A stretch of 58,969 bases of DNA. Source: a virus. Lineage: Duplodnaviria > Caudoviricetes. The stretch lies in IMG/VR virus record IMGVR_UViG_3300032053_000085, positions 1-58,969 of that record. One strand, given 5' to 3'. The notes under the pieces are model-generated. The model did not search any database and had not been told where the DNA came from. It saw only the letters and a list, made by a program, of their open reading frames with translations. Position 1 is the stretch's first letter. Every line of letters starts with the position of its first letter. Of the stretch, positions 121 through 56,630 are shown in pieces. A program made the translations under genes and the position numbers.

Positions 121-187
121 TAGCTAGCTAGTACACTAGCTAGCTAGTGTACTAGCTAGCTAGTACACTAGCTAGCTAGTGTACTAG
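121..187. repeat. Palindromic CTAG tandem array: 16-nt units CTAGCTAGCTAG+TACA alternating with CTAGCTAGCTAG+TGTA
   Basis: Read directly. TACA and TGTA are reverse complements, so the array is self-complementary about several centres. A related inverted repeat GTGTGCTAGT-gt-ACTAGCACAC lies at 211-232. Confidence 0.95.
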
Positions 188-267
188 GAAGGGGGGTCAC
201 TAGCGTATGGGTGTGCTAGTGTACTAGCACACTAGGGGGGCATCAACCTCCCGGATTATTTTTTCAA

Positions 268-1971: not shown

Positions 1972-2577
1972 ATGTTAATGAGTATGGCGGAAATCTCCGC
2001 GAAGTATGGTCCTATTCGTCGCATCATCCACGTTGGAGCACATTACGGACAAGAAGTTGGTGATTATCTGCGGGCGGGTGCCTCGCAAATTGACCTGTTC
2101 GAGCCGATCGATACAAACATCGAGCATCTAGAACGGGCGTTTGGTGCCAATCCAAGCGTCATTATCCACCATACCGCACTTGGAGATCACCAAGGTACGG
2201 CTGTCATGCACGTGGCAAGCAATGAAGGTCAATCGTCTTCGGTTCTAGAACCGAAGGACCACCTAGCCCAGTATCCACACATATCGTTCCAAAGCTCCAA
2301 AACGGTACCAATGGCGCGTTTGGATGACTTTAGGCTGTCGGGAGCCGACTTTCTCGCTGCCGACGTCCAAGGGTACGAATTGGAGGTTTTACGGGGTGCC
2401 CGGAAAACCTTAGAGAATGTTCGGATGGTTTATTGCGAAGTAAACCGAGCCGAACTCTACAAAGATTGTGCCCAGATAGACGAAATCGACACGTTCTTAG
2501 CCGAGTTCGGCTTTAAACGTGTCGATGTTGCTTGGGTTGGCGGTACTTGGGGCGATGCCCTGTATGTTAAGTCTTAG
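1972..2577 (+). CDS. FkbM-family SAM-dependent methyltransferase
   Basis: HVGAHYG motif I, FEP, ALGD, DVQGYELEVLRGA, YCEV. Confidence 0.92.
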   Translation: MLMSMAEISAKYGPIRRIIHVGAHYGQEVGDYLRAGASQIDLFEPIDTNIEHLERAFGANPSVIIHHTALGDHQGTAVMHVASNEGQSSSVLEPKDHLAQYPHISFQSSKTVPMARLDDFRLSGADFLAADVQGYELEVLRGARKTLENVRMVYCEVNRAELYKDCAQIDEIDTFLAEFGFKRVDVAWVGGTWGDALYVKS

Positions 2578-4208: not shown

Positions 4209-5630
4209 ATGGAAATCGATTATTACAAGGAACTTGGGGCATTATGCCGTCTTGACTACTTCCAGTTCGTCAAGACGTTTTGGCCCTACGTTTCGACTGA
4301 GAAACTCCAAATCAACTGGCACATCCCGTATCTGTGCAAGGAAATCCAGTATCACAGCGAGCGAATCTTCAACGGGCTGCCAAAAGAGAACGATCTGGTC
4401 ATCAATATTAGCCCAGGTACGTCGAAGTCCACGATCTTCACCACTCTTTATTTGCCCTGGTGCTGGACTCGGATGCCTGGATTCCGATATATCGGAACCA
4501 GTTTCGCCGAAGATTTGGCGTTCGAGTTGACGGTCAAGTCGCGGCGAGTGGTGCAATCGCCGCTCTACCGGAAGTTGTTCCCGGAGATCGAGCTACGCGA
4601 AGACTTGAACAACAAGTCGCTGTGGTCGAATACTCTTGGCGGTGACCGCTACGCCGCTGGTACGGGCGGTAACATCACGGGACGGCACGCTCACTGTATT
4701 GGGATCGATGATCCGCTCGATCCGAAGGGCGGGCGATCCAAGGCTAAGATTGAGGAAGCCGCCAAGTACATCAAGGAAACCTTACCTAGTCGTAAGGTTT
4801 CCAAGGAATTGTCGTGGACCTACATGGTCATGCAACGGATAGCCGTAGGCGATCCGACTGCTGTGTTCTTGGAGAACTTCCCAGGAGTTAAGCTAATCTG
4901 CCTCCCAGGCGAGGAAACAGACTTCATTCACCCGCCCGAGCTACGTCAATACTATGTCGACGGACTGTTTGACCCGGTACGGCTCAGTAGGCGTGTCCTA
5001 CTGAGCCTGAAAGCGGAGTTAGGGGAATTCGGTTATTGCGGACAAATCCTCCAACAACCGATCCCGATAGGTGGTGGGGCCATCAAAACCGACCGGATTC
5101 AGATTCATCTGGCCCCTCCGCCAGACAACGCATTTCGCAAGATAGTGCGATTCTGGGACAAGGCCGCTCTGGCGGATTCTGGAGACTGGACTGTCGGAGC
5201 GAAGCTCGGTATCACGCCCAACGGAGACGTCTGGATATTAGGGATCGTTCGCGGACAGTGGTCTACTGATGCTCGCGAAGCCATAATCAAAGCAACGGGC
5301 CACCTAGACGGTAAACACGTCAGGATAGGCATGGAACAAGAACCTGGTTCGAGCGGAATCGATGCCGTTAAGGAGTCGATTAAGCGACTCCACGGATTCA
5401 ATGTCACGGCTGTGAAAAGCACGGGAAACAAGCTACTTCGTATGGATACATTTGCCACTCAAATCAATGTTGGAAATGTGCATACGGCTATTTCAGGTAA
5501 GGTCTTAGATGACTACCTTAAAGAACTTCGATACTTTCCCGATGGATCAAACGACGACCAATGTGACGCCAGTAGCGGGGCTTACACTATGTTAATCCAA
5601 CACGGAATGAAGCTAGGCGTTATTAAGTGA
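4209..5630 (+). CDS. terL: Terminase large subunit
   Basis: Walker A-like ISPGTSKST, Walker B IGIDDP, MQR coupling motif; RNase H-like nuclease WDKA..DWTVG, EQEPGSSG, DDQCDASSGA. Confidence 0.96.
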   Translation: MEIDYYKELGALCRLDYFQFVKTFWPYVSTEKLQINWHIPYLCKEIQYHSERIFNGLPKENDLVINISPGTSKSTIFTTLYLPWCWTRMPGFRYIGTSFAEDLAFELTVKSRRVVQSPLYRKLFPEIELREDLNNKSLWSNTLGGDRYAAGTGGNITGRHAHCIGIDDPLDPKGGRSKAKIEEAAKYIKETLPSRKVSKELSWTYMVMQRIAVGDPTAVFLENFPGVKLICLPGEETDFIHPPELRQYYVDGLFDPVRLSRRVLLSLKAELGEFGYCGQILQQPIPIGGGAIKTDRIQIHLAPPPDNAFRKIVRFWDKAALADSGDWTVGAKLGITPNGDVWILGIVRGQWSTDAREAIIKATGHLDGKHVRIGMEQEPGSSGIDAVKESIKRLHGFNVTAVKSTGNKLLRMDTFATQINVGNVHTAISGKVLDDYLKELRYFPDGSNDDQCDASSGAYTMLIQHGMKLGVIK

Positions 5631-6287
5631 TGACTGTTTCGGGGGCGTAGTCAATGCTCGTACCGGGTCCCATCCCGCCCCAACGCGATCGTGAACAGTA
5701 CGGATTTTCATCTTATAGTGCCTTGCCCAGTTAGTCAATGTGTCTGTTTTATCACCGATTGTGACTAAGCGGTTGCTACGCCGATTATTGGCTTGCTCCT
5801 GGTTGGTGGACCATCTGCAATTTTCAGGGCAGTAATTCTCGGCGTTACGTTCGCGGTCGATAGAATGCTTAGGGCTTGGCTTCTCGCCCATGTCTGCGAA
5901 GAAATTCTCGAATTTCTTCCAGCGCTCACAGTAACCAATACCACGAGCGCCGTAGTCAGGGTAATCTTTACAATTCGGATTGTCGCACCTTCGTTTCATT
6001 GCCTGCCATGACCGGTACTCAGAAGTCTTCTGCATCCCGTGTGTGGTATTGCGTGCGATCATAGCCGCAGTTTGCAGGCACCCGCAGCTTTGTGTTTTTC
6101 CACTACGCAAACTACCGACACGTATTATCTTACGGTTCCCGCACTCGCATAGACATTCCTGGTGCGATCTGTGTTGTTTTCCATCATGTATCGCGAACGT
6201 AGGCCCGATTGTTTTCAATCGGCCAAAAGTTTCCGAGACAAATCCATTGCTAAAATCACCATTTTGTGCTACAATTAGTTCAGCCAT
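5613..6287 (-). CDS. Free-standing HNH-type homing endonuclease, copy 1 (start MAELIV)
   Basis: FGRL, CLCECG, SCGC, SWQAMKRRC, YGARGI, CERW, DMGEKP, SIDR..NYCPENCRW, C-terminal R..GW....ALT. Confidence 0.88.
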   Translation of the reverse strand: MAELIVAQNGDFSNGFVSETFGRLKTIGPTFAIHDGKQHRSHQECLCECGNRKIIRVGSLRSGKTQSCGCLQTAAMIARNTTHGMQKTSEYRSWQAMKRRCDNPNCKDYPDYGARGIGYCERWKKFENFFADMGEKPSPKHSIDRERNAENYCPENCRWSTNQEQANNRRSNRLVTIGDKTDTLTNWARHYKMKIRTVHDRVGAGWDPVRALTTPPKQSSLNNA

Positions 6288-6361
6288 TTGGAATAAGTAC
6301 CTATTTTGAGTGGATAGAAAAGCCACGGGATTGAGTCCCCGTGGCTTTTTGTATTATAGCA
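6288..6361 (-). promoter_or_regulatory. HNH leader cassette copy 1: TGcTATAAT, 12-bp hairpin, TTTTCTATCCA box, RBS
   Basis: Extended -10 at 6353-6361; stem 6318-6329/6338-6349; same design at 41404-41478 and 49853-49926. Confidence 0.85.
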
Positions 6362-6385
6362 CAGTTCTCTGTATTTCACCAGACT

Positions 6386-6417
6386 TTGTAACAAAAACAC
6401 CAGTGTTTTTGTTACAA
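6386..6417. repeat. Perfect 15-bp inverted repeat TTGTAACAAAAACAC-ca-GTGTTTTTGTTACAA (operator-like)
   Basis: Read directly; lies between divergent promoters. Confidence 0.85.
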
Positions 6418-6517
6418 CTTTGGCGGAACCTAATTACTCTGAACTGCCTCCAATTAGAGGGCTCCGCCCGATAATTGGCCCTTTTTATTCTTTTTTGTTT
6501 TTATTCCTAGAATTCTC

Positions 6518-6545
6518 TTGACAAGAATTGGCCTATCGGTATAAT
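6518..6545 (+). promoter_or_regulatory. Consensus sigma70 promoter TTGACA-N16-TATAAT
   Basis: Both hexamers are perfect; preceded by an AT-rich UP-like tract (6481-6505). Confidence 0.85.
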
Positions 6546-6551
6546 GGAATT

Positions 6552-6845
6552 ACTGTGTTTGAGGCGATAGCCGATAACACTAACGGGAGCTAACGCTAGC
6601 CTACATCCGATTAACTTGAATCGGCTTAGACGTTAGTCTCTAGTTTAGTGTGGTGCCGCCTTTTAAGGGCGGACACCACCAGAAGGGCAGTAGGAAGTGA
6701 CGATAGGCACTTCCTTATCTTTTGACCCGAATTCCAGACTGGCCCCATGGTTGAAAGATTCAACCATGGGGAACTCTGGTAATCTTTTGCATAATTAGGG
6801 CTACTTCTGTTACAATCTGAGTATTAGCCCTAATTATGCTCAGGA
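6552..6845 (+). ncRNA. Candidate structured ncRNA or long leader between terL/HNH and portal
   Basis: No ORF >=60 aa; consecutive stems at 6577-6651 (nested), 6650-6679, 6692-6715, 6743-6771 (13 bp) and 6789-6839 (15 bp), downstream of a perfect promoter. Confidence 0.55.
6787..6839 (+). promoter_or_regulatory. Portal-proximal promoter TTGCAT-N18-(TGt)TACAAT with the -10 inside a 15-bp inverted repeat
   Basis: Arms GCATAATTAGGGCTA 6789-6803 and TAGCCCTAATTATGC 6825-6839; AGGAG RBS follows. Confidence 0.6.
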
Positions 6846-6854
6846 GCACGACAA

Positions 6855-8363
6855 TTGGACAGCCTAGCCCATCTAACCAGCACATCGCAATTTATCACGA
6901 ATCTATACGACCGTGCCATGGCAGGTATCCCCGTTCTCGATGGACGCGACGGGACCCGTAGCATCGATCGAGAATGCGGCCACCCAGACGTAGTCACATT
7001 TTCGGATTACATGCAAATGTATCGCCGTGGCGACGTTGCCAAGCGGGTGAACAATCTCGAACCGGACGAGTGCTGGAAAGACTACCCAGAAGTCTACGAA
7101 ACCGAAGAAGAACGGGAAACTCCTTTCGAGAAAGCCGTAGACAAGGTAATTACCCAGTCGCGGCTCTATAGCTACCTACATCGACTCGACCGAATCAGCG
7201 GAATCGGTCGATACGGCGTCTTATTCATCGGCTTAGATGACGGCAACGACTTCGATACGCCTGCCCCTGGATTCGAGGATGACGCTCCCGGTAGTACTCC
7301 GGGCACCGCTAGAATCCTATATTACAGAGTATTCGGCGAAGAATCGGCCCAAATACAAGAATTCGAGACCGATCGAACTAATCCCAGGTATGGCCAGCCT
7401 AAGTTCTATAACCTGATGTTCGAGGATTCGGTAGGCGACGGTCAGACGACCCTAACCCTGGCAAAAGTCCACTGGTCACGTATTGTCCACGTTGCAGACA
7501 ACTTGATTGAGTCTGAAATATTCGGTGCCCCTCGTATGGAAGACGTATTCAATCGTCTTCTGGACTTGCGTAAGGTCTCTGGTGGTTCGGCTGAAATGTT
7601 CTGGAAAGGCGGGTTTCCCGGCCTTTCCTTCGAAGTTGACCCGAAGCAAGGTGAATTTGACGCAGCTCAGCGTACTGAACTGCGTGAAGACGTAAAAGCC
7701 TACGCCGAAGGACTCCAACGCTACATTACGATGGTCGGAGTCTCGGTCAAGTCGCTCGCTCCGCAGATCAGCGATCCAACCAATTGTACTACGAACCTCC
7801 TGATCCTGATCGCGATTACCAAGGGGATGCCACAACAGTCCTTCATGGGCTCGCAACAAGGCCAGTTGGATAGTCCGCAGGATACGATCACTTGGCGAGA
7901 ACGTGTTATGCTCCGAAAGGAACGTCACGTATCCCCAAACATCATCCGGGTAACGCTTGACCGTATGATCCAATACGGCGTACTGCCCCAACCAACTGCC
8001 CAGCTTGACCAGCCGCTCCCGTACGTTATTCGTTGGGAAGCTATGGCACCGCTCAGCGAAGCTGAGCGTGCCCAATTTGCCAAGGATATGACTGAGGCCC
8101 TGGCTCGCTACGCGACAGCCGGTGCCGAATCAATCGTCCCGCTCGGCGAATGGCTTGGTAAGTTCTGCTTATTTACAGCACAACAAGTTAAAGCCGTAGA
8201 AAATGCTGAATCTACCCGCAAGTCGCTCGTCTTCGCGCAACTTGACGGCATGACCGGTTCCGCTGGCGGAAACGCCCCTAGCTCGATCCCGAAGGTTCCG
8301 GGCGGCGGCCAGAAGAAAGACCCAGGCAAAACTCCAACTAACAATGTACAGAAAGCCAAATAA
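6855..8363 (+). CDS. Portal protein (DUF1073-like)
   Basis: Lies after TerL; GIGRYGVL, NPRYGQPKFY, VHWSRIVH, GGSAEMFWK; TTG start after AGGAG. Confidence 0.88.
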   Translation: MDSLAHLTSTSQFITNLYDRAMAGIPVLDGRDGTRSIDRECGHPDVVTFSDYMQMYRRGDVAKRVNNLEPDECWKDYPEVYETEEERETPFEKAVDKVITQSRLYSYLHRLDRISGIGRYGVLFIGLDDGNDFDTPAPGFEDDAPGSTPGTARILYYRVFGEESAQIQEFETDRTNPRYGQPKFYNLMFEDSVGDGQTTLTLAKVHWSRIVHVADNLIESEIFGAPRMEDVFNRLLDLRKVSGGSAEMFWKGGFPGLSFEVDPKQGEFDAAQRTELREDVKAYAEGLQRYITMVGVSVKSLAPQISDPTNCTTNLLILIAITKGMPQQSFMGSQQGQLDSPQDTITWRERVMLRKERHVSPNIIRVTLDRMIQYGVLPQPTAQLDQPLPYVIRWEAMAPLSEAERAQFAKDMTEALARYATAGAESIVPLGEWLGKFCLFTAQQVKAVENAESTRKSLVFAQLDGMTGSAGGNAPSSIPKVPGGGQKKDPGKTPTNNVQKAK

Positions 8364-40737: not shown

Positions 40738-41403
40738 TTAGTGTTTTGATTGCATGGTAAACGCCGATAGTGGTTCCCATCCTCTATTTAGCCGCTTGCG
40801 AACTAGCTCAGCAGAGACATTGTAGTGTCTGCACCAATTAGCTAGCGTGTCAGTTTTATCGCCAATCATAATCAGGCGATTAGAGCGGCGGTTATTATTT
40901 TGTTGTTCGGGAGTAGCCCAGCGGCAATTACTTGGTTCGTAATTGCCATCCTTGTTCGGGAACCGGTCTAGTGTATGCTTCGGACTTGGTTTTTCGCCCA
41001 TGTCTAGAAAGAAATTCTCGAATTTCTTCCATCGTTCGCAGTAGCCGATTCCACGTCCGCCGTAATCGCTGTAGCGATTTCTTGCCTTGTTATCGCATCG
41101 CTGTATCATACCTGCCCACGCTGCATATTCTGGAGTGGCTGACATGCTGTGTACGGTTGCCATAGTTGCGGTTGTTTCGCGGCGGAAGCAGCCGCAACTG
41201 ACGGTGGTTTGTTTCTTTAAGCTCGCTACGCGGTACACTCCAGTAGCGCCGCACTCGCATAAACAGACTTGGTTGACGCATCTACTACCGCATCTACCGT
41301 ACGCCAATGTGAAGGGTGGACCCAAGGTCGTAAGACGACCATAGGTTTCCGGGACGAATTCGGTGCATACTCGCACCGAATGGACTACAATGTACTTAGC
41401 CAT
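40738..41403 (-). CDS. Free-standing HNH-type homing endonuclease, copy 2 (start MAKYIV)
   Basis: Paralogue of 5613..6287 sharing CLCECG, SCGC, CERWKKFENFF.DMGEKPSPKH, NCRW, IGDKTDTL.NW. Confidence 0.88.
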   Translation of the reverse strand: MAKYIVVHSVRVCTEFVPETYGRLTTLGPPFTLAYGRCGSRCVNQVCLCECGATGVYRVASLKKQTTVSCGCFRRETTATMATVHSMSATPEYAAWAGMIQRCDNKARNRYSDYGGRGIGYCERWKKFENFFLDMGEKPSPKHTLDRFPNKDGNYEPSNCRWATPEQQNNNRRSNRLIMIGDKTDTLANWCRHYNVSAELVRKRLNRGWEPLSAFTMQSKH

Positions 41404-41499
41404 TTGAAACATTCCTAGTGTTTTGATTGGATAGAAAACCCAAGCGGTAACAGCCGCTTGGGTTTTCGCATTATAGCATATTTCTCGTATATTCTTCAA
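41404..41499 (-). promoter_or_regulatory. HNH leader cassette copy 2: TTGAAG-N18-TATAAT with TGn, 14-bp hairpin, TTTTCTATCCA box
   Basis: Stem 41434-41447/41454-41467 has a different sequence from copy 1 but the same position and flanks. Confidence 0.85.
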
Positions 41500-42077
41500 G
41501 AATTCGCCCATTGGTGCAGAACATCTTCGACTTTGTCGTAGAGTTCTTGAAGTGATCCGTTATTCTCGATAGTGTAGTCCCCTTCTGCCCAATAATCTAG
41601 TTGCATTTCTGAACGATGATCAGATTGGGGAGTTTCGCGATCGGACCAGACGTAAATAAACAACGAATCGAGAGACCGGCCCCATGCGACTTCGTTTGCA
41701 AATCGAGTGTCGTAGAATGCAGTGCGGTAGTCACCGCGACTGCGTTCTTCGGCTATTTTGACCCAGCAATCCTGGCCATGGATATCTCGACCACATTCCG
41801 TGCCTAACAGTTGTAGCCATTTACGAACTTCTACGAAGTTACGTTTAACGTAGTCCACACCAAATCGCCATACCAAAGCACGATATTGCTCGTGCTGTGC
41901 TTTAGTGATCGATACGCCAGTATGAATCCAGGGATTCAAAATGGCTAGTTGTTCGTACAGTGGGTCGGCAAAGCCTCTCGCTGTGAAGTGGTGCGTATCT
42001 TCCAGGTACTTCGCAATGACGGATTTACCGGCATTGCGATTGCCCATGAGAAATACTGCTTTTGGTAGATTATTCAT
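41496..42077 (-). CDS. Deoxynucleoside monophosphate kinase
   Basis: GNRNAGKS, FADPL, R..LQ.LGTE.GR, D.RF.NE, H.SE. Confidence 0.9.
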   Translation of the reverse strand: MNNLPKAVFLMGNRNAGKSVIAKYLEDTHHFTARGFADPLYEQLAILNPWIHTGVSITKAQHEQYRALVWRFGVDYVKRNFVEVRKWLQLLGTECGRDIHGQDCWVKIAEERSRGDYRTAFYDTRFANEVAWGRSLDSLFIYVWSDRETPQSDHRSEMQLDYWAEGDYTIENNGSLQELYDKVEDVLHQWANS

Positions 42078-49678: not shown

Positions 49679-49852
49679 CTATACTGATTCTGCCTTCGCG
49701 GCATTGTAAGTGCTAGTAGCGGTTCGATTCCGTTGTTTATGCGGGATTTCACTGTGGAGTAGTTGGCGTTGTAGGGTCGTGAGACGACCATATGTTTCTG
49801 GGGTGAATTCGGTGCATACTCGCACCGAATGGACTACAATATACTTAGCCAT
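49679..49852 (-). pseudogene. Internally deleted HNH (copy 3)
   Basis: First 27 codons nearly identical to copy 2 (MAKYIVVHSVRVCTEF.PETYGRLTTL), joined out of frame to the C-terminus YNANYSTVKSRINNGIEPLLALTMP. Confidence 0.85.
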
Positions 49853-49926
49853 TTGAAATAATTACCTATTTTGATTGGATAGAAAAGCCACGGGATTGAG
49901 TCCCCGTGGCTTTTTGCATTATAGCA
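49853..49926 (-). promoter_or_regulatory. HNH leader cassette copy 3
   Basis: Hairpin and loop identical to copy 1; TGcTATAAT at 49918-49926. Confidence 0.88.
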
Positions 49927-50292
49927 CTATTTTTGCTGGACTTCAGCAAATTGATACCACCGCGACTCCGAGGTACGCCATTTCATCTGGCCGGGACGGT
50001 ACTGTACTATTAAAGTATAGGTCCACGGTTCGTCGACGTGGTTCCGCACCCTGCCTTTGAGCGGCTGGTAGGCCCACTGCATCGGCCACAATTTCTGCCA
50101 ATGTGCTTTACGTTGGACTATGGCTACTGGACACTCAAACGAGTCGCATTCTTCTAGTTGCTTTTCCTCTACGACTACGAGTAGCTGATATGATTCGTAC
50201 TCGTATGCGATGTAATGCTCGCCTATAGAAGGTGAGCCTATTCTTACGATTTCCCAGCCGTGGGGCACTCCGACTATGCCGTTATTACCCAC
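49927..50292 (-). CDS. Hypothetical protein (start uncertain)
   Basis: VPHGWEIVRIG.P..GE ... RVRN...EPW. Confidence 0.6.
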   Translation of the reverse strand: MGNNGIVGVPHGWEIVRIGSPSIGEHYIAYEYESYQLLVVVEEKQLEECDSFECPVAIVQRKAHWQKLWPMQWAYQPLKGRVRNHVDEPWTYTLIVQYRPGQMKWRTSESRWYQFAEVQQK

Positions 50293-50792
50293 GCCGCCGT
50301 CCGCTTCGTGCGTTTGGTTACTTTCTCCTTGATCCCCTCGATCGTGTCCAGGAGTTTGTCCTTGTTCGTTTCCGTTGCTTGGCATAGTCGTCTAGTTAAT
50401 CCTATTGCTTTCCGGCTTTCTAGCCGCTCGTACGCTTCAATGACGGCGAGTTCGTCTTTGTCGAACTCTGCCGGTATGCCAGTAACGTCCAGCGTCACGC
50501 ATTCGCCGTACGCATTTGTACTGACGTATTGAATCCGTGAGCGTCGATCTGACTTTTTGATCTGGGCACGAACGAAGTTGAGTGCCACCGTACCAGCAAA
50601 TGTAGTCATCTGACCACGGGTCGGATCGAACTTATGCTTGTATTTTAGCCAAATAACTACGAAATCTTGGAAATAATCGTCGTAGGATACACGATTTTGT
50701 TGGCTAGTATGCCATCCTTTGTATAAAATCTTATGTATCAAAGGACCGGCACCGCAAAACATTGGCTCGCTAAGGATTGTATTCAACAACAT
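50274..50792 (-). CDS. Sigma70-family sigma-like factor (region 2)
   Basis: DDYFQD......KFDPTRG.MTTFA. Confidence 0.75.
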   Translation of the reverse strand: MLLNTILSEPMFCGAGPLIHKILYKGWHTSQQNRVSYDDYFQDFVVIWLKYKHKFDPTRGQMTTFAGTVALNFVRAQIKKSDRRSRIQYVSTNAYGECVTLDVTGIPAEFDKDELAVIEAYERLESRKAIGLTRRLCQATETNKDKLLDTIEGIKEKVTKRTKRTAAWVITA

Positions 50793-52205: not shown

Positions 52206-52865
52206 ATGGCAAAACGAGCAAGGAAAGTCCCCGATTCGCAGGTCAATGATGCCTGGGAAATACCAAAGCGAGTGACTCTATCCTCATACCAGCAACTAGC
52301 CTACAAGGTTATTGATACCAACAGCATTTCCATTTTGGGCGGAGAGGCCGGTTGTGGTAAGACTTTTACTGCCATGTACTACGCAATTGAATCTATTAAG
52401 TCTGGGCGATACGACGATCTCGTGGTTATCCGTAGCCCAGTTGAAGCCGGGCGTAGTCGCCTCGGCTTCATTCCGGGCACCGTGGGCGAGAAGATGGCCC
52501 CGTGGTGCGTTCCTATGCTAGATATCGCAAAGGAGCTACGCTTCGACCGCGAGATCAAGTTCTTACCGCCCGGATACATCCAGGGGATGACCATCAACGC
52601 ATTCGTTCTAGTGGATGAATGCCAGAACTTAGATTTGTCCGAGTGGGAAATGGTTGTCACTCGACTTGGTAAAGGCGGTAAGATTTGCTTCACTGGGGAT
52701 GCCCATCAGGACACTAGACGAGTCGGCGGCATGCTTCCATTTATGGAAGCAACCGCTGACGTTACCAGTATCGGGCAATACGTGTTCCCGGATGACGCTA
52801 ATCAGCGCCATCCGGTTGTACGCGACGTAACTAGGGCATTACGCAAGTACCGCGAAACACACTAG
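52206..52865 (+). CDS. phoH: PhoH-family ATPase
   Basis: GEAGCGKT, R..VEAG..LGFIPG...EK..PW, G.T, DECQN, TRLG, GD..Q, RHP. Confidence 0.95.
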   Translation: MAKRARKVPDSQVNDAWEIPKRVTLSSYQQLAYKVIDTNSISILGGEAGCGKTFTAMYYAIESIKSGRYDDLVVIRSPVEAGRSRLGFIPGTVGEKMAPWCVPMLDIAKELRFDREIKFLPPGYIQGMTINAFVLVDECQNLDLSEWEMVVTRLGKGGKICFTGDAHQDTRRVGGMLPFMEATADVTSIGQYVFPDDANQRHPVVRDVTRALRKYRETH

Positions 52866-54884: not shown

Positions 54885-55327
54885 GTTTTTCGTTTTTTAG
54901 CGTTCGCCCGCTTGCGTGCGTCCGCCTGATAGGAACTGAGACCTTGGAGCACACCGGCAGGATTTGCCAGCCTAATTGATGACTGAAGCAGGTCGTTTGT
55001 TCCTATCAGGCGTAACAGGGGCACGCCTGTGGGTGCTAGTAGTAGGTACTCCGTAAGGTGCCTGAACTTCCTAACGAGCACCAAATCAAGACCGGTCTGC
55101 GTAGCGACCTCGTCTACCCAAACCGGTCGCTGCTCGCTTGGTGGGATTTTCGGAGCACCAATCTTTTTCGGGCGGCCTCTGTGCTTACGAAGGACTTGTG
55201 CGATGAGAGGCTGCGGGAAACCTGTGAGTTCTTTGATCTTATCCCATGTACGTTCCGCAGGCGGAAGGGACATGGCGGCTGATTTTATCTCCGCGATAGC
55301 GCGGCGGGACGGCTTGATTTCTGTCAT
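54881..55327 (-). CDS. Putative DNA-binding protein (HTH-like plus AT-hook-like RGRP)
   Basis: WDKIKELTGFPQPLIAQVL..HRGRPKK. Confidence 0.55.
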   Translation of the reverse strand: MTEIKPSRRAIAEIKSAAMSLPPAERTWDKIKELTGFPQPLIAQVLRKHRGRPKKIGAPKIPPSEQRPVWVDEVATQTGLDLVLVRKFRHLTEYLLLAPTGVPLLRLIGTNDLLQSSIRLANPAGVLQGLSSYQADARKRANAKKRKT

Positions 55328-56127
55328 TATTGATTCTCGCAAGGTGCACTCGCGTGCCAATCGGCTGGGAATATAGGCGGTCCCGGCTTATTGTCCGTAA
55401 GCCAGTTCGTTGGATAGACCACGCCCTGGGTGGTATTGGATAGGTAGGCACCGAGCCACCCAAACGTGGAATTTCCAATGATATGGTAGTCGAACTTAAT
55501 CATATAGCTCAGATCGATCCACGGGTCTCGATCTTCGACGGCAATCAATTGTATGCTACGGCTAATCTCGTTCCACATTCGCGGGACGAGGGTATATTGG
55601 CACCATTCGTAGTCGTCGGAATAGATCACAAAGCGATCTATTCCCTTGGATTGGTGGAGATTCTTAGCATGCTTGATGAAATATTCAGCAGGCATGACTC
55701 CGTGCCAAGCGGTCGAACATGGATTGGTCACGTAATCGCCACGTCTTACGTGGATACAGGCACGTTTCGATAAGCCTCGCGGACGCCACTGGATACGTCG
55801 ACGGAACCAGTCCCTGACGTCTGACGTCCAGTAGTCCAGGGATTGGAAGTAACCTTCGAGACGATAGTTCTTGGCAGGATCGTAGTTTGCCGGAACTGAT
55901 TCCTGGTAACGCTCGTCACAAGGCACTTGGCGTGCGCCAGGACGCACGCCAAGTGCTCCGAGCCGGAAAGGGCGGGGTGTTATACCTGGAGTGTTCTGGT
56001 ACGCTTCCAGGAGGCTACAATCGGCTTCTATCAGGTGTTCGTTGCCCGGGCCGACAACCGATAGGGCGGCGGCATACTGAAAAACTTGATTACCCAACCC
56101 CCCCATTAGGGTTATATGCACTGTCAT
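55327..56127 (-). CDS. GT11 alpha-1,2-fucosyltransferase-like glycosyltransferase
   Basis: GGLGNQ.FQYA, GYFQS, HVRRGDY, SDD, NSTF.W.GAYL. Confidence 0.93.
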   Translation of the reverse strand: MTVHITLMGGLGNQVFQYAAALSVVGPGNEHLIEADCSLLEAYQNTPGITPRPFRLGALGVRPGARQVPCDERYQESVPANYDPAKNYRLEGYFQSLDYWTSDVRDWFRRRIQWRPRGLSKRACIHVRRGDYVTNPCSTAWHGVMPAEYFIKHAKNLHQSKGIDRFVIYSDDYEWCQYTLVPRMWNEISRSIQLIAVEDRDPWIDLSYMIKFDYHIIGNSTFGWLGAYLSNTTQGVVYPTNWLTDNKPGPPIFPADWHASAPCENQ

Positions 56128-56149
56128 TGAATTATGCACTCCTGTACTA

Positions 56150-56630
56150 GGTCTAGAATTCGGGTCAAAAGATTAGTAACTGACTCACTACGTTCGTTAG
56201 TACTAGATACTGTAGCAGAGGGGAGCAGTGGTGTAAACACCACTGCTACTAGGTTTTGCTGACTTTTCCAAAAGTCATGTCAAACCGCTCAGAGCGGTTT
56301 CACGAAGGAAGCCCATACCCACGTGACTAAAAAGCACGTCGGTTGGACTCCCTGAGAACTTGCATACGGTCAAGACGACGTCGCTAGCCCCACGATCCGC
56401 TCCGCATTTTCGCGGTCGGACCAGCGAGATTTATATGGCGAAAATGCCAGTAGCCAGGGCTCTCGCTCACCTTTAGGAAGGCTTGAGTCGCACCCTTGTC
56501 GCTGAGGCTACTCCTGGTAGCGACCGGTTCTAGACTTGCGCCACGTAGATTACCCCGCCGCAAGTAAGACCAGTATAGCCACATTCAGCGTTTCGGGGCA
56601 GGAATTTAGGTGATTCCTGCCCCGAAACGG
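56150..56630. ncRNA. Candidate large structured RNA or structured DNA element
   Basis: About 480 nt with at least ten stems, two mutually complementary loops and a terminal 17-bp inverted repeat; no credible ORF. Confidence 0.5.

What the first reader, a model, noticed from the sequence alone, without database searches (positions are those of the whole stretch)
6518..6845. Candidate structured ncRNA from a perfect promoter between terminase and portal
Seen: TTGACA-N16-TATAAT is followed by ~290 nt that are mostly paired. There is a nested domain (ACACTAA/TTAGTGT, CTAACG/CGTTAG, CCGATT/AATCGG), then GTGGTG.CCGCC/GGCGG.CACCAC, AGGAAGTG/CACTTCCT, a 13-bp stem and a 15-bp stem. The portal gene appears to have its own promoter at 6787, which argues for a separate RNA rather than just a leader. 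Known: phi29 pRNA is a precedent for an RNA in the packaging motor. Inference: an abundant, undescribed phage RNA with a packaging, anti-defence decoy or late-gene switch role.
Basis: partly seen in the sequence, partly recalled or inferred. Interest (0 to 1): 0.72.

Follow-up and report, generated by a model that had tools for sequence, protein, structure and literature searches.

The report
Orphan promoter-terminator RNA unit before portal
A perfect bacterial-type promoter followed by a folded, non-coding 173-base stretch and a terminator sits in a variable slot before the portal gene of an uncultured phage, but the phage's whole genome is crowded with perfect hairpins, so the folding alone is weak evidence for a special RNA.

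Summary

The interval splits into two parts:
- 6518-6724 is a self-contained unit: promoter, a 173-nt ORF-free folded transcript, and an intrinsic terminator whose T-tract lies only on the + strand.
- 6782-6854 is the ancestral portal promoter and leader, ATCTTTTG-N21-TACAAT, kept in 4 of 4 portal-upstream sequences. Two perfect hairpins overlie or adjoin it.

Two results weaken the ncRNA case.
- No homologue turned up anywhere. The three closest relatives carry other inserts in the same TerL-portal slot, so covariation cannot be tested.
- The whole genome holds 103 perfect inverted repeats against about 1 expected, and 79 of them lie inside ORFs. Measured against that background the region ranks 4th of 1174 windows.

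There is no Rfam match and no RNA run is listed.

Best reading: a moron-like RNA gene, confidence 0.45. A phi29-pRNA-like role is not supported. The genome-wide hairpins are the more surprising result.

The parts
5613..6287 (-). HNH homing-endonuclease gene. The likely ATG is at 6287; the listed ORF runs on to a GTG at 6326, inside the leader hairpin.
   Evidence: phrog_374, E 5.9e-62. Translation. The start MAELIV aligns with MAKYIV of paralogues.
6318..6361 (-). Promoter and leader module of the HNH cassette: TGcTATAAT (6361-6353), then a 12-bp hairpin (6349-6318) followed by TTTTCTATCC.
   Evidence: The same module occurs at 41.4 kb and 49.9 kb and in L010, with compensatory stem changes. 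On the + strand the hairpin is also terminator-like.
6386..6417 (.). Perfect palindrome with 15-nt arms and a 2-nt centre. It lies upstream of the HNH promoter and outside the region shared by the HNH module copies.
6480..6511 (+). T-rich tract immediately upstream of the -35 hexamer. An UP-element-like role is inferred.
   Evidence: Read directly. The UP-element consensus is recalled, not tested.
6518..6545 (+). P1: TTGACA-N16-TATAAT, a perfect sigma-70 consensus promoter.
   Evidence: the only one in the window; 0.01 expected.
6552..6724 (+). Predicted P1 transcript, about 173 nt. The start at A6552 and the end in the T-tract are inferred. No ORF has support.
   Evidence: Fold -68.8 kcal/mol, z -5.68 on the + strand, against -59.4, z -4.41 on the - strand. 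ORFs.
6577..6651 (+). Domain 1: a 75-nt irregular nested hairpin of 28 pairs.
6650..6680 (+). Hairpin 2, GC-rich: GTGGTGCCGCC/GGCGGACACCAC.
6692..6724 (+). Intrinsic terminator: an 8-bp stem (6692-6715) plus a TATCTTTTG tail. The tail on the - strand is not T-rich.
   Evidence: The minus-strand sequence can be read.
6705..6739 (+). Stretch containing ATCTTTTGACCCGAATTCCAGAC. It recurs in the same orientation relative to the downstream operon at 56185-56151 (- strand).
   Evidence: 86% identity over 35 nt, E 4.8e-6 within the genome..
6734..6779 (.). Hairpin 4: a 13-bp perfect stem (6743-6771) inside a 5-bp outer stem. It is followed by TAATCTTTTG.
6782..6816 (+). P2, the ancestral portal promoter: ATCTTTTG-N21-TACAAT. 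The -35-like TTGCAT is at 6787-6792 and the -10 TACAAT at 6811-6816.
   Evidence: The register is identical in the window, L001, L007 and L008 (4 of 4). TACAAT lies 38 nt from the TTG start in 3 of 4.
6789..6839 (.). Hairpin 5: 15-bp perfect arms that enclose the -10 of P2. It is absent from relatives.
6842..8363 (+). AGGAG ribosome-binding site (6842-6846) and the portal gene (TTG start at 6855). This is the first gene of the roughly 20-kb rightward structural operon.
   Evidence: phrog_146 E 3.7e-48 and PF06381 E 1.6e-21. Gene map.
56151..56185 (-). Second copy of the ATCTTTTGACCCGAATTCTAGAC stretch, just upstream of the first gene (a GT11 glycosyltransferase) of the roughly 29-kb leftward operon.

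Best explanation
Positions 6518-6724 form an autonomous, moron-like transcription unit that encodes an RNA rather than a protein. It consists of a consensus sigma-70 promoter with a T-rich upstream tract, a roughly 173-nt folded transcript (a small 5' hairpin, a 75-nt nested domain and a GC-rich hairpin), and a strand-specific intrinsic terminator.

The unit sits in a hyper-variable slot between the large terminase (TerL) and the portal gene, beside an HNH homing-endonuclease cassette. Host RNA polymerase would make the RNA soon after infection, and most transcripts would stop before the portal promoter.

Hairpin 4 and hairpin 5 are perfect palindromes of a class that pervades this genome, and 6782-6854 is the conserved portal promoter P2 and its leader.

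Shown: the promoter, the terminator, the absence of any supported ORF, the variable slot and the conservation of P2. Inferred: that the unit is transcribed, the transcript ends, and any action in trans (a protein-binding decoy or regulator). The function itself remains open.
For: - P1 is 12 of 12 and unique in 59 kb, with 0.01 expected.
- A terminator-like hairpin with TATCTTTTGA follows 140 nt downstream, and only the + strand has the T-tract.
- The 173-nt stretch folds better on the + strand: -68.8, z -5.68, against -59.4, z -4.41.
- No ORF of 30 aa or more in the interval has a PHROG match, 0 of 7 tested.
- The portal has its own promoter, conserved in 4 of 4 sequences, and relatives that lack P1 keep it. 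P1 is therefore an add-on that the portal operon does not need, and an add-on with its own terminator looks like a separate gene.
- The slot is variable. L001 and L008 carry minus-strand ORFs and L007 a different non-coding element. In Brevundimonas phage MaInes, TerL and portal abut.
- The similarity between the HNH cassette copies fades about 6380, so the unit is not part of that cassette.
Against: - No transcript evidence: no RNA run is listed.
- No homologue in 50,697 phage records, in 22 fetched loci, or by exact or gapped patterns in viral and genome contigs. Conservation and covariation are therefore untested.
- The only population variants seen are at 6423 and 6515, outside the RNA.
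- Stems are nearly all Watson-Crick, with 7 G-U in 102 pairs, and fold on both strands.
- The genome makes perfect hairpins everywhere, ORFs included, so structure may be a by-product.
- The terminator is modest: an 8-bp stem, -11.4 kcal/mol, with an interrupted T-tract. Read-through into the portal gene is possible.
- No target stood out. The best duplex with 76 translation-start regions was -63.7, against a shuffled mean of -63.9.
Confidence: 0.45

Rival explanations
1. Cis-acting leader. P1 is an extra promoter of the portal (structural) operon. The folded leader plus terminator works as an attenuator or antitermination site, like lambda pR'-tR' or HK022 put, or carries a boxA-like site in the ATCTTTTGA stretch. 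Polymerases leave it only when modified or regulated.
For: - It has the same orientation as the 20-kb structural operon and lies directly upstream of it.
- The terminator is promoter-proximal.
- The 35-nt stretch at the terminator tail recurs at the head of the other long operon, in the same orientation.
- In L007 a different structured, conserved element occupies the same place before the portal gene. In the window that element heads the leftward operon.
- A genome with about 100 hairpins in transcribed DNA might need processive antitermination. This point is inference only.
Against: - No Q-type antiterminator was found: PF03589 and PF06530 gave 0 matches at E<=1. The record is only 81% complete.
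- Relatives run the portal operon from P2 alone.
- TerL, also a late gene, lies upstream of P1.
- No antiterminator alternative pairing was seen by eye.
- The boxA resemblance is recalled, not tested.
Confidence: 0.2
2. No dedicated RNA function. P1 is simply a strong early promoter, or a fortuitous one, in a junk-tolerant spacer. The stems are products of the same process that fills the whole genome with perfect palindromes, for example template-switch homogenisation of quasi-palindromes or a DNA-level requirement.
For: - 103 perfect inverted repeats against 0-4 in 20 shuffles.
- 79 lie inside ORFs, against 0-2 after synonymous codon shuffling.
- Relatives have 1.3-1.4 per kb, unrelated loci 0-0.36 per kb, and MaInes 0.08 per kb.
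- Hairpin positions turn over between relatives without indels.
- Perfect stems of 12 bp or more (45) far outnumber one-mismatch stems (10).
- Hairpin 5 was built over the conserved P2 region in this phage only.
- There is almost no strand asymmetry.
Against: - Domain 1, hairpin 2 and the terminator are imperfect or short stems, not of the perfect 10-bp-or-longer class.
- The region still ranks 4th of 1174 against the genome's own background.
- A 12 of 12 promoter paired with a strand-specific terminator is unlikely to be accidental.
Confidence: 0.2
3. A DNA-level element: a cluster of operator palindromes, a transcription-activated replication origin, or a packaging site placed between TerL and the portal gene.
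For: - The palindromes are symmetric and fold equally on both strands.
- Hairpin 5 encloses the P2 -10, and the palindrome 6386-6417 adjoins the HNH promoter. Both placements are operator-like.
- The location is beside the packaging genes.
Against: - There are no iterons and no direct-repeat families beyond 8-10-mers.
- A better terminus or origin candidate exists at 121-232, a palindromic tandem array.
- The element is absent from relatives that share TerL and portal at about 71-78% identity, which argues against an essential packaging site.
Confidence: 0.08
4. A packaging-motor RNA like phi29 pRNA.
For: Only the position between TerL and portal and the similar length of about 170 nt.
Against: - No match to any Rfam family, pRNA included, at gathering score or at E<=10.
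- TerL carries the classical RNaseH-like nuclease domain (PF17289) and a standard portal.
- Close relatives with the same motor proteins lack the RNA.
Confidence: 0.02

Closest known systems
Phage morons: autonomous promoter-gene-terminator inserts between conserved late genes (concept recalled from the lambdoid-phage literature, not read here)
   Same: It has its own sigma-70 promoter and its own intrinsic terminator. It is inserted between two genes that abut in a distant relative, in a slot that carries different cargo in each close relative.
   Different: The cargo has no supported ORF, so it would be an RNA moron. The phage looks lytic (DNA polymerase, helicases), not a prophage.
Lambda pR'-tR' unit and its 194-nt '6S' transcript with Q antitermination (recalled)
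   Same: A strong constitutive-type promoter, a short terminated transcript of similar length, and structural genes directly downstream.
   Different: No Q-family gene was detected. The portal gene has its own conserved promoter. TerL lies upstream of the unit, not downstream.
phi29 pRNA (Rfam RF00044)
   Same: Size class, and a location near the packaging genes.
   Different: No covariance-model match, a classical nuclease-bearing terminase, and no conservation among relatives that share the motor proteins.
HK022 put RNAs and other cis-acting processive antiterminator RNAs (recalled)
   Same: Promoter-proximal stem-loops at the head of a long operon, followed by terminators.
   Different: The two long operons carry non-homologous structured elements and share only a 35-nt stretch.
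Perfect inverted repeats made or kept by replication template switching (PMC8794818, PMC5941160, PMC8604942) and coding palindromes in Nematomorpha mitochondria (PMC6649704). Only the search listings and the starts of the abstracts were seen.
   Same: Many perfect inverted repeats, including inside protein-coding sequence, with rapid turnover.
   Different: Here it is a tailed dsDNA phage lineage, with about 1.5 per kb in ORFs. The mechanism was not tested.

Membership tests
phi29 pRNA (RF00044) | Match to the family covariance model | tested here: not met
   No family reached gathering score in the whole window. pRNA is not among the 23 weak matches at E<=10 in 6200-7000.
phi29 pRNA (RF00044) | Phage with a phi29-type packaging ATPase that lacks a nuclease domain (recalled feature) | tested here: not met
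   TerL matches phrog_38 and the Terminase_6C RNaseH-like nuclease domain.
phi29 pRNA (RF00044) | Intermolecular loop-loop complementarity that builds a ring on the portal | not tested
   Not examined. Four-base loop matches would not be informative without homologues.
Lambda-type pR'-tR' / Q antitermination unit | Strong promoter followed within about 200 nt by an intrinsic terminator, upstream of late genes | tested here: met
   P1 at 6518-6545, terminator at 6692-6724, portal operon downstream.
Lambda-type pR'-tR' / Q antitermination unit | A Q-family antiterminator gene in the genome | tested here: not met
   PF03589 and PF06530 gave 0 matches at E<=1 in six frames. The record is 81% complete and a third Q family was not searched.
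Lambda-type pR'-tR' / Q antitermination unit | Q-binding element and a sigma-dependent promoter-proximal pause | not testable with these tools
   A -10-like TACTGT lies at the predicted start, but such hexamers are common.
Phage moron | Own promoter and own terminator, inserted between genes that are adjacent in relatives | tested here: met
   with variable slot contents.
Phage moron | Cargo is a protein-coding gene | tested here: not met
   Only ORFs of 33-54 aa, none with a PHROG match.
Any Rfam 15 family | Score at or above the gathering threshold | tested here: not met
   0 matches in 58,969 bases on both strands.
Conserved structured ncRNA (generic criterion) | Homologues with compensatory base-pair changes | tested here: inconclusive
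   No homologue was found, so no alignment could be made. Four sediment runs hold near-identical copies with no variant inside 6552-6854 where covered.

The most novel reading that the evidence does not exclude
The folded RNAs at the heads of the two long convergent operons are cis-acting antitermination or elongation-control RNAs. These are the P1 RNA before the portal gene and the conserved 56-kb element before the leftward operon; the 56-kb element replaces the P1 RNA before the portal gene in L007. They would let host RNA polymerase travel through a genome that this phage lineage has filled with about 100 perfect hairpins, and the shared ATCTTTTGACCCGAATTC stretch would be the factor-loading site. 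If so, the hairpins and the leader RNAs are two halves of one system, possibly a barrier against host nucleases or defence systems that unmodified polymerases, or competitors, cannot cross.
Probability: 0.1. Interest if true: 0.8.

Novelty: new member of a known kind. Interest (0 to 1): 0.4.

Why it matters
If the unit is transcribed as predicted, it would be a non-coding cargo in the kind of slot where phages usually carry protein morons. It would be made from the strongest host-type promoter in the genome, which makes it a candidate for an early-acting decoy or regulator in an uncultured sediment phage.

The more significant result is the context. This phage lineage carries about 60-100 times more perfect hairpin-forming repeats than chance allows, inside genes as well as between them. 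Three literature searches found no description of this for a tailed phage. It changes how any 'structured RNA' call in such genomes should be judged. It also raises a testable question: is a mutational process (template switching) at work, or a selective need (DNA- or RNA-level protection)?

Tried and rejected
- Rfam at gathering score and at E<=10: only chance-level hairpin matches. tRNA/tmRNA scan: none.
- blastn of 6300-6900 against phages: no match.
- Exact or gapped pattern scans:
  - hairpin 2 in viral contigs and genome contigs: 0
  - domain 1 arms in viral contigs: 0
  - a conserved block of the 56-kb element in viral contigs: 0
- The 18-mer ATCTTTTGACCCGAATTC hit 3 viral contigs. All three hits lie in coding sequence of unrelated phages and are taken as chance.
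- Flanks of 15 HNH relatives: no similarity to 6327-6854 apart from the HNH promoter in L010.
- Sequencing runs: no RNA holder listed. Contigs of 4 DNA runs laid on 5300-7300 were near-identical fragments and gave no variation usable for covariation.
- sRNA target search by duplex energy against 76 start regions: no better than shuffled RNA.
- G-U versus A-C asymmetry among one-mismatch stems: 4 versus 1, too few to use.
- K-mer search for a shared promoter motif in 30 intergenic regions: only TTTTTCTTGA, found in 3 regions.
- T7-type RNA polymerase family search: empty, but its control was silent too, so it is uninformative.
- The 56-kb element was not found in the rest of L001's contig. L007-L009 are not held as records.
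Supplementary files of papers were not consulted.

Full report
CONTEXT. The window is a single IMG/VR virus record of 58,969 bases, estimated 81% complete.
- It encodes a tailed-phage structural module on the + strand (portal at 6855 through about 27.2 kb).
- It encodes a replication module on the - strand (about 56.1 down to 27.3 kb), with a family-A DNA polymerase, a DnaB-like helicase, an SNF2 helicase and PhoH.
- The finding lies in the 528-nt spacer 6327-6854. To its left are the large terminase (TerL) at 4209-5630 (+, phrog_38) and a convergent HNH homing endonuclease at 5613-6287/6326 (-, phrog_374). To its right is the portal gene at 6855-8363 (+, phrog_146, PF06381).
- The phage is far from isolates: the best portal match among 50,697 phage records is 33% identical.

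OBSERVATION.
- TTGACA-N16-TATAAT at 6518-6545 is a 12 of 12 match and the only one in the window, with 0.01 expected. A T-rich tract precedes it.
- The 303 nt that follow fold to -128.7 kcal/mol, z -8.86.
- The reverse strand folds to -118.8, z -8.20, and only 7 of the 102 pairs are G-U. The structure is essentially a set of DNA palindromes.

ANATOMY. The interval is composite.
(a) 6552-6724 holds a small hairpin, a 75-nt nested domain, a GC-rich hairpin, and then AGGAAGTG/CACTTCCT followed by TATCTTTTG.
- The scan calls the last element a terminator. The T-tract is present only on the + side (the minus-strand sequence is).
- This 173-nt stretch favours the + strand: -68.8, z -5.68, against -59.4, z -4.41.
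(b) 6734-6779 is a 13-bp perfect hairpin inside a 5-bp outer stem.
(c) 6782-6854 is the portal promoter and leader.
- ATCTTTTG-N21-TACAAT is present in the same register in the window and in L001, L007 and L008 (4 of 4).
- TACAAT lies 38 nt from the TTG start in 3 of 4. L007 has a 31-nt insertion.
- In the window only, a 15-bp perfect inverted repeat (6789-6839) has been built around the -10 of this promoter.

LEFT FLANK.
- The HNH gene has its own module on the - strand: TGcTATAAT (6361-6353), a 12-bp hairpin (6349-6318) followed by TTTTCTATCC, then an ATG at 6287.
- The same module heads a second HNH gene at 40738-41511 (phrog_374) and a 57-aa remnant at 49679-49852.
- It also heads an HNH relative in another viral contig, L010, with compensatory changes in the stem.
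- Similarity among the copies fades about 20 nt upstream of the -10. The P1 unit is therefore not part of the HNH cassette.

COMPARATIVE EVIDENCE.
- Portal-based searches found three distinct relatives at 78% protein identity plus a fragment.
- None has the P1 unit. L001 and L008 have minus-strand ORFs in the slot.
- L007 has a different non-coding element, 73% identical to window 56560-56180 read on the - strand.
- In a distant isolate, Brevundimonas phage MaInes, TerL and portal abut.
- blastn and nhmmer of 6327-6854 against 22 fetched loci gave only chance 12-19-mers, apart from the HNH promoter in L010.
- The phage collection gave nothing, and pattern scans of the viral and genome collections gave nothing.
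- Four sediment runs hold near-identical fragments. The only variants are at 6423 and 6515, outside the RNA.
No RNA run is listed.

GENOME-WIDE HAIRPINS. This is the result that most changes the reading.
- The window contains 103 perfect inverted repeats with arms of 10 nt or more and loops of 2-25 nt. Twenty block shuffles gave 0-4. The repeat tool confirms this independently on 42-49 kb: 16 pairs, 13 of them perfect.
- On a crude map of 76 ORFs, 79 of the repeats lie wholly inside ORFs, against 0-2 after synonymous-codon shuffling. Density is 1.47 per kb in coding DNA and 2.65 per kb in non-coding DNA.
- Relatives share the trait (L001 1.43 per kb, L007 1.31 per kb). Seventeen unrelated viral loci have 0-0.36 per kb, and MaInes has 0.08 per kb.
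- In TerL and portal the hairpins are not at the same positions in the window and its relatives, and they are not insertions. The homologous stretch in the other genome is an imperfect palindrome of the same length.
- Perfect stems of 12 bp or more (45) outnumber stems with one mismatch (10).
- Against this background, 6552-6854 ranks 4th of 1174 overlapping 303-nt windows, robust z -3.7. It comes after the palindromic array at the left end and the 56.5-kb spacer.
- Heavy pairing is therefore weak evidence for an RNA gene here. The strand-specific signals (promoter, T-tract) carry the argument.

WHAT IT MOST LIKELY IS.
- I read 6518-6724 as a moron-like unit with RNA cargo (confidence 0.45). 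It has its own promoter and terminator and sits in a slot that takes different cargo in each relative. It is not needed for portal expression, because relatives use P2 alone.
- The function is open. No target in the phage stands out, and no known family matches.
- The main rival (0.2) is a cis-acting leader. The 35-nt stretch at the terminator tail recurs, in the same orientation, just before the first gene of the leftward operon.
- The structured 56-kb element that heads the leftward operon sits before the portal gene in L007.
- That element shows 17 of 85 predicted pairs with changes on both sides. It folds better on the strand of the downstream genes (-85.5) than on the opposite strand (-68.7). 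This rests on two sequences only, the structure was derived from those same sequences, and template switching could mimic compensation.
- No Q-type antiterminator was found. A weak sigma-70 region-2 match lies at 50541-50744.
- A third reading (0.2) is that the stems are by-products of the hairpin-making process and P1 is just a promoter.
- A DNA-level site (0.08) and a pRNA-like motor RNA (0.02) are unlikely, for the reasons given under the rival explanations.

VERDICT.
- As an orphan, unconserved and unexpressed-so-far candidate, the RNA deserves moderate interest.
- The lineage-wide excess of perfect hairpins, and the structured elements at both operon heads, are the items most worth following up.
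- Papers were seen only as search listings and the starts of abstracts. Statements about lambda, HK022, phi29, morons, boxA and UP elements are recalled knowledge.

Noticed in passing
whole window; also L001, L007, L008, L009: Extreme excess of perfect hairpin-forming inverted repeats.
- 103 with arms of 10 nt or more, against about 1 in shuffles.
- 79 lie inside ORFs, against 0-2 after synonymous shuffling.
- The trait is shared by relatives and absent from unrelated loci and from Brevundimonas phage MaInes.
- Positions are not conserved, and the repeats are not insertions.
   Followed up: partly
window 6318-6361, 41434-41477, 49883-49925 (all - strand); L010 165-212: A repeated module, (TG)nTATAAT plus a hairpin plus TTTTCTATCCAATCAAAA, heads two HNH endonuclease genes (5613-6287 and 40738-41511) and a 57-aa remnant (49679-49852). 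It has compensatory stem changes between copies. It could be a promoter-proximal attenuator or a 5' stabiliser of a multiplied homing cassette.
   Followed up: partly
window 56180-56560 (- strand); L007 1-380: A conserved (73%) ORF-poor structured element. In the window it heads the leftward operon; in L007 it lies directly upstream of the portal promoter. 17 of 85 predicted pairs change on both sides, and it folds better on the strand of the downstream genes. No Rfam match.
   Followed up: partly
window 6705-6739 (+) and 56151-56185 (-): The 35-nt stretch containing ATCTTTTGACCCGAATTCYAGAC lies at the head of both long operons. The relatives' portal promoters share ATCTTTTG-N12-GAC. Whether it is a promoter, a factor site or a recombination joint is unresolved.
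   Followed up: partly
window 121-232: A tandem array of interlocking palindromes (CTAGCTAGTACACTAGCTAG...) with arms up to 29 nt, the most structured spot in the window. It is a candidate genome terminus or origin.
   Followed up: no
window 5754-6205: One low-depth contig in run X2 joins 5754 to 6205, skipping 450 nt of the HNH gene. It could be a deletion variant or a cross-match to a paralogue.
   Followed up: no
window 50274-50792 (-): A 172-aa ORF with a borderline Sigma70_r2 match (23.9 bits against a cut-off of 24) and no PHROG match. A phage sigma factor could explain the non-consensus P2-type promoters.
   Followed up: no
window 55327-56139 (-), 1972-2577 (+), 52206-52865 (+): Auxiliary genes: a family-11 glycosyltransferase, an FkbM-type methyltransferase and a PhoH-like protein.
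   Followed up: no
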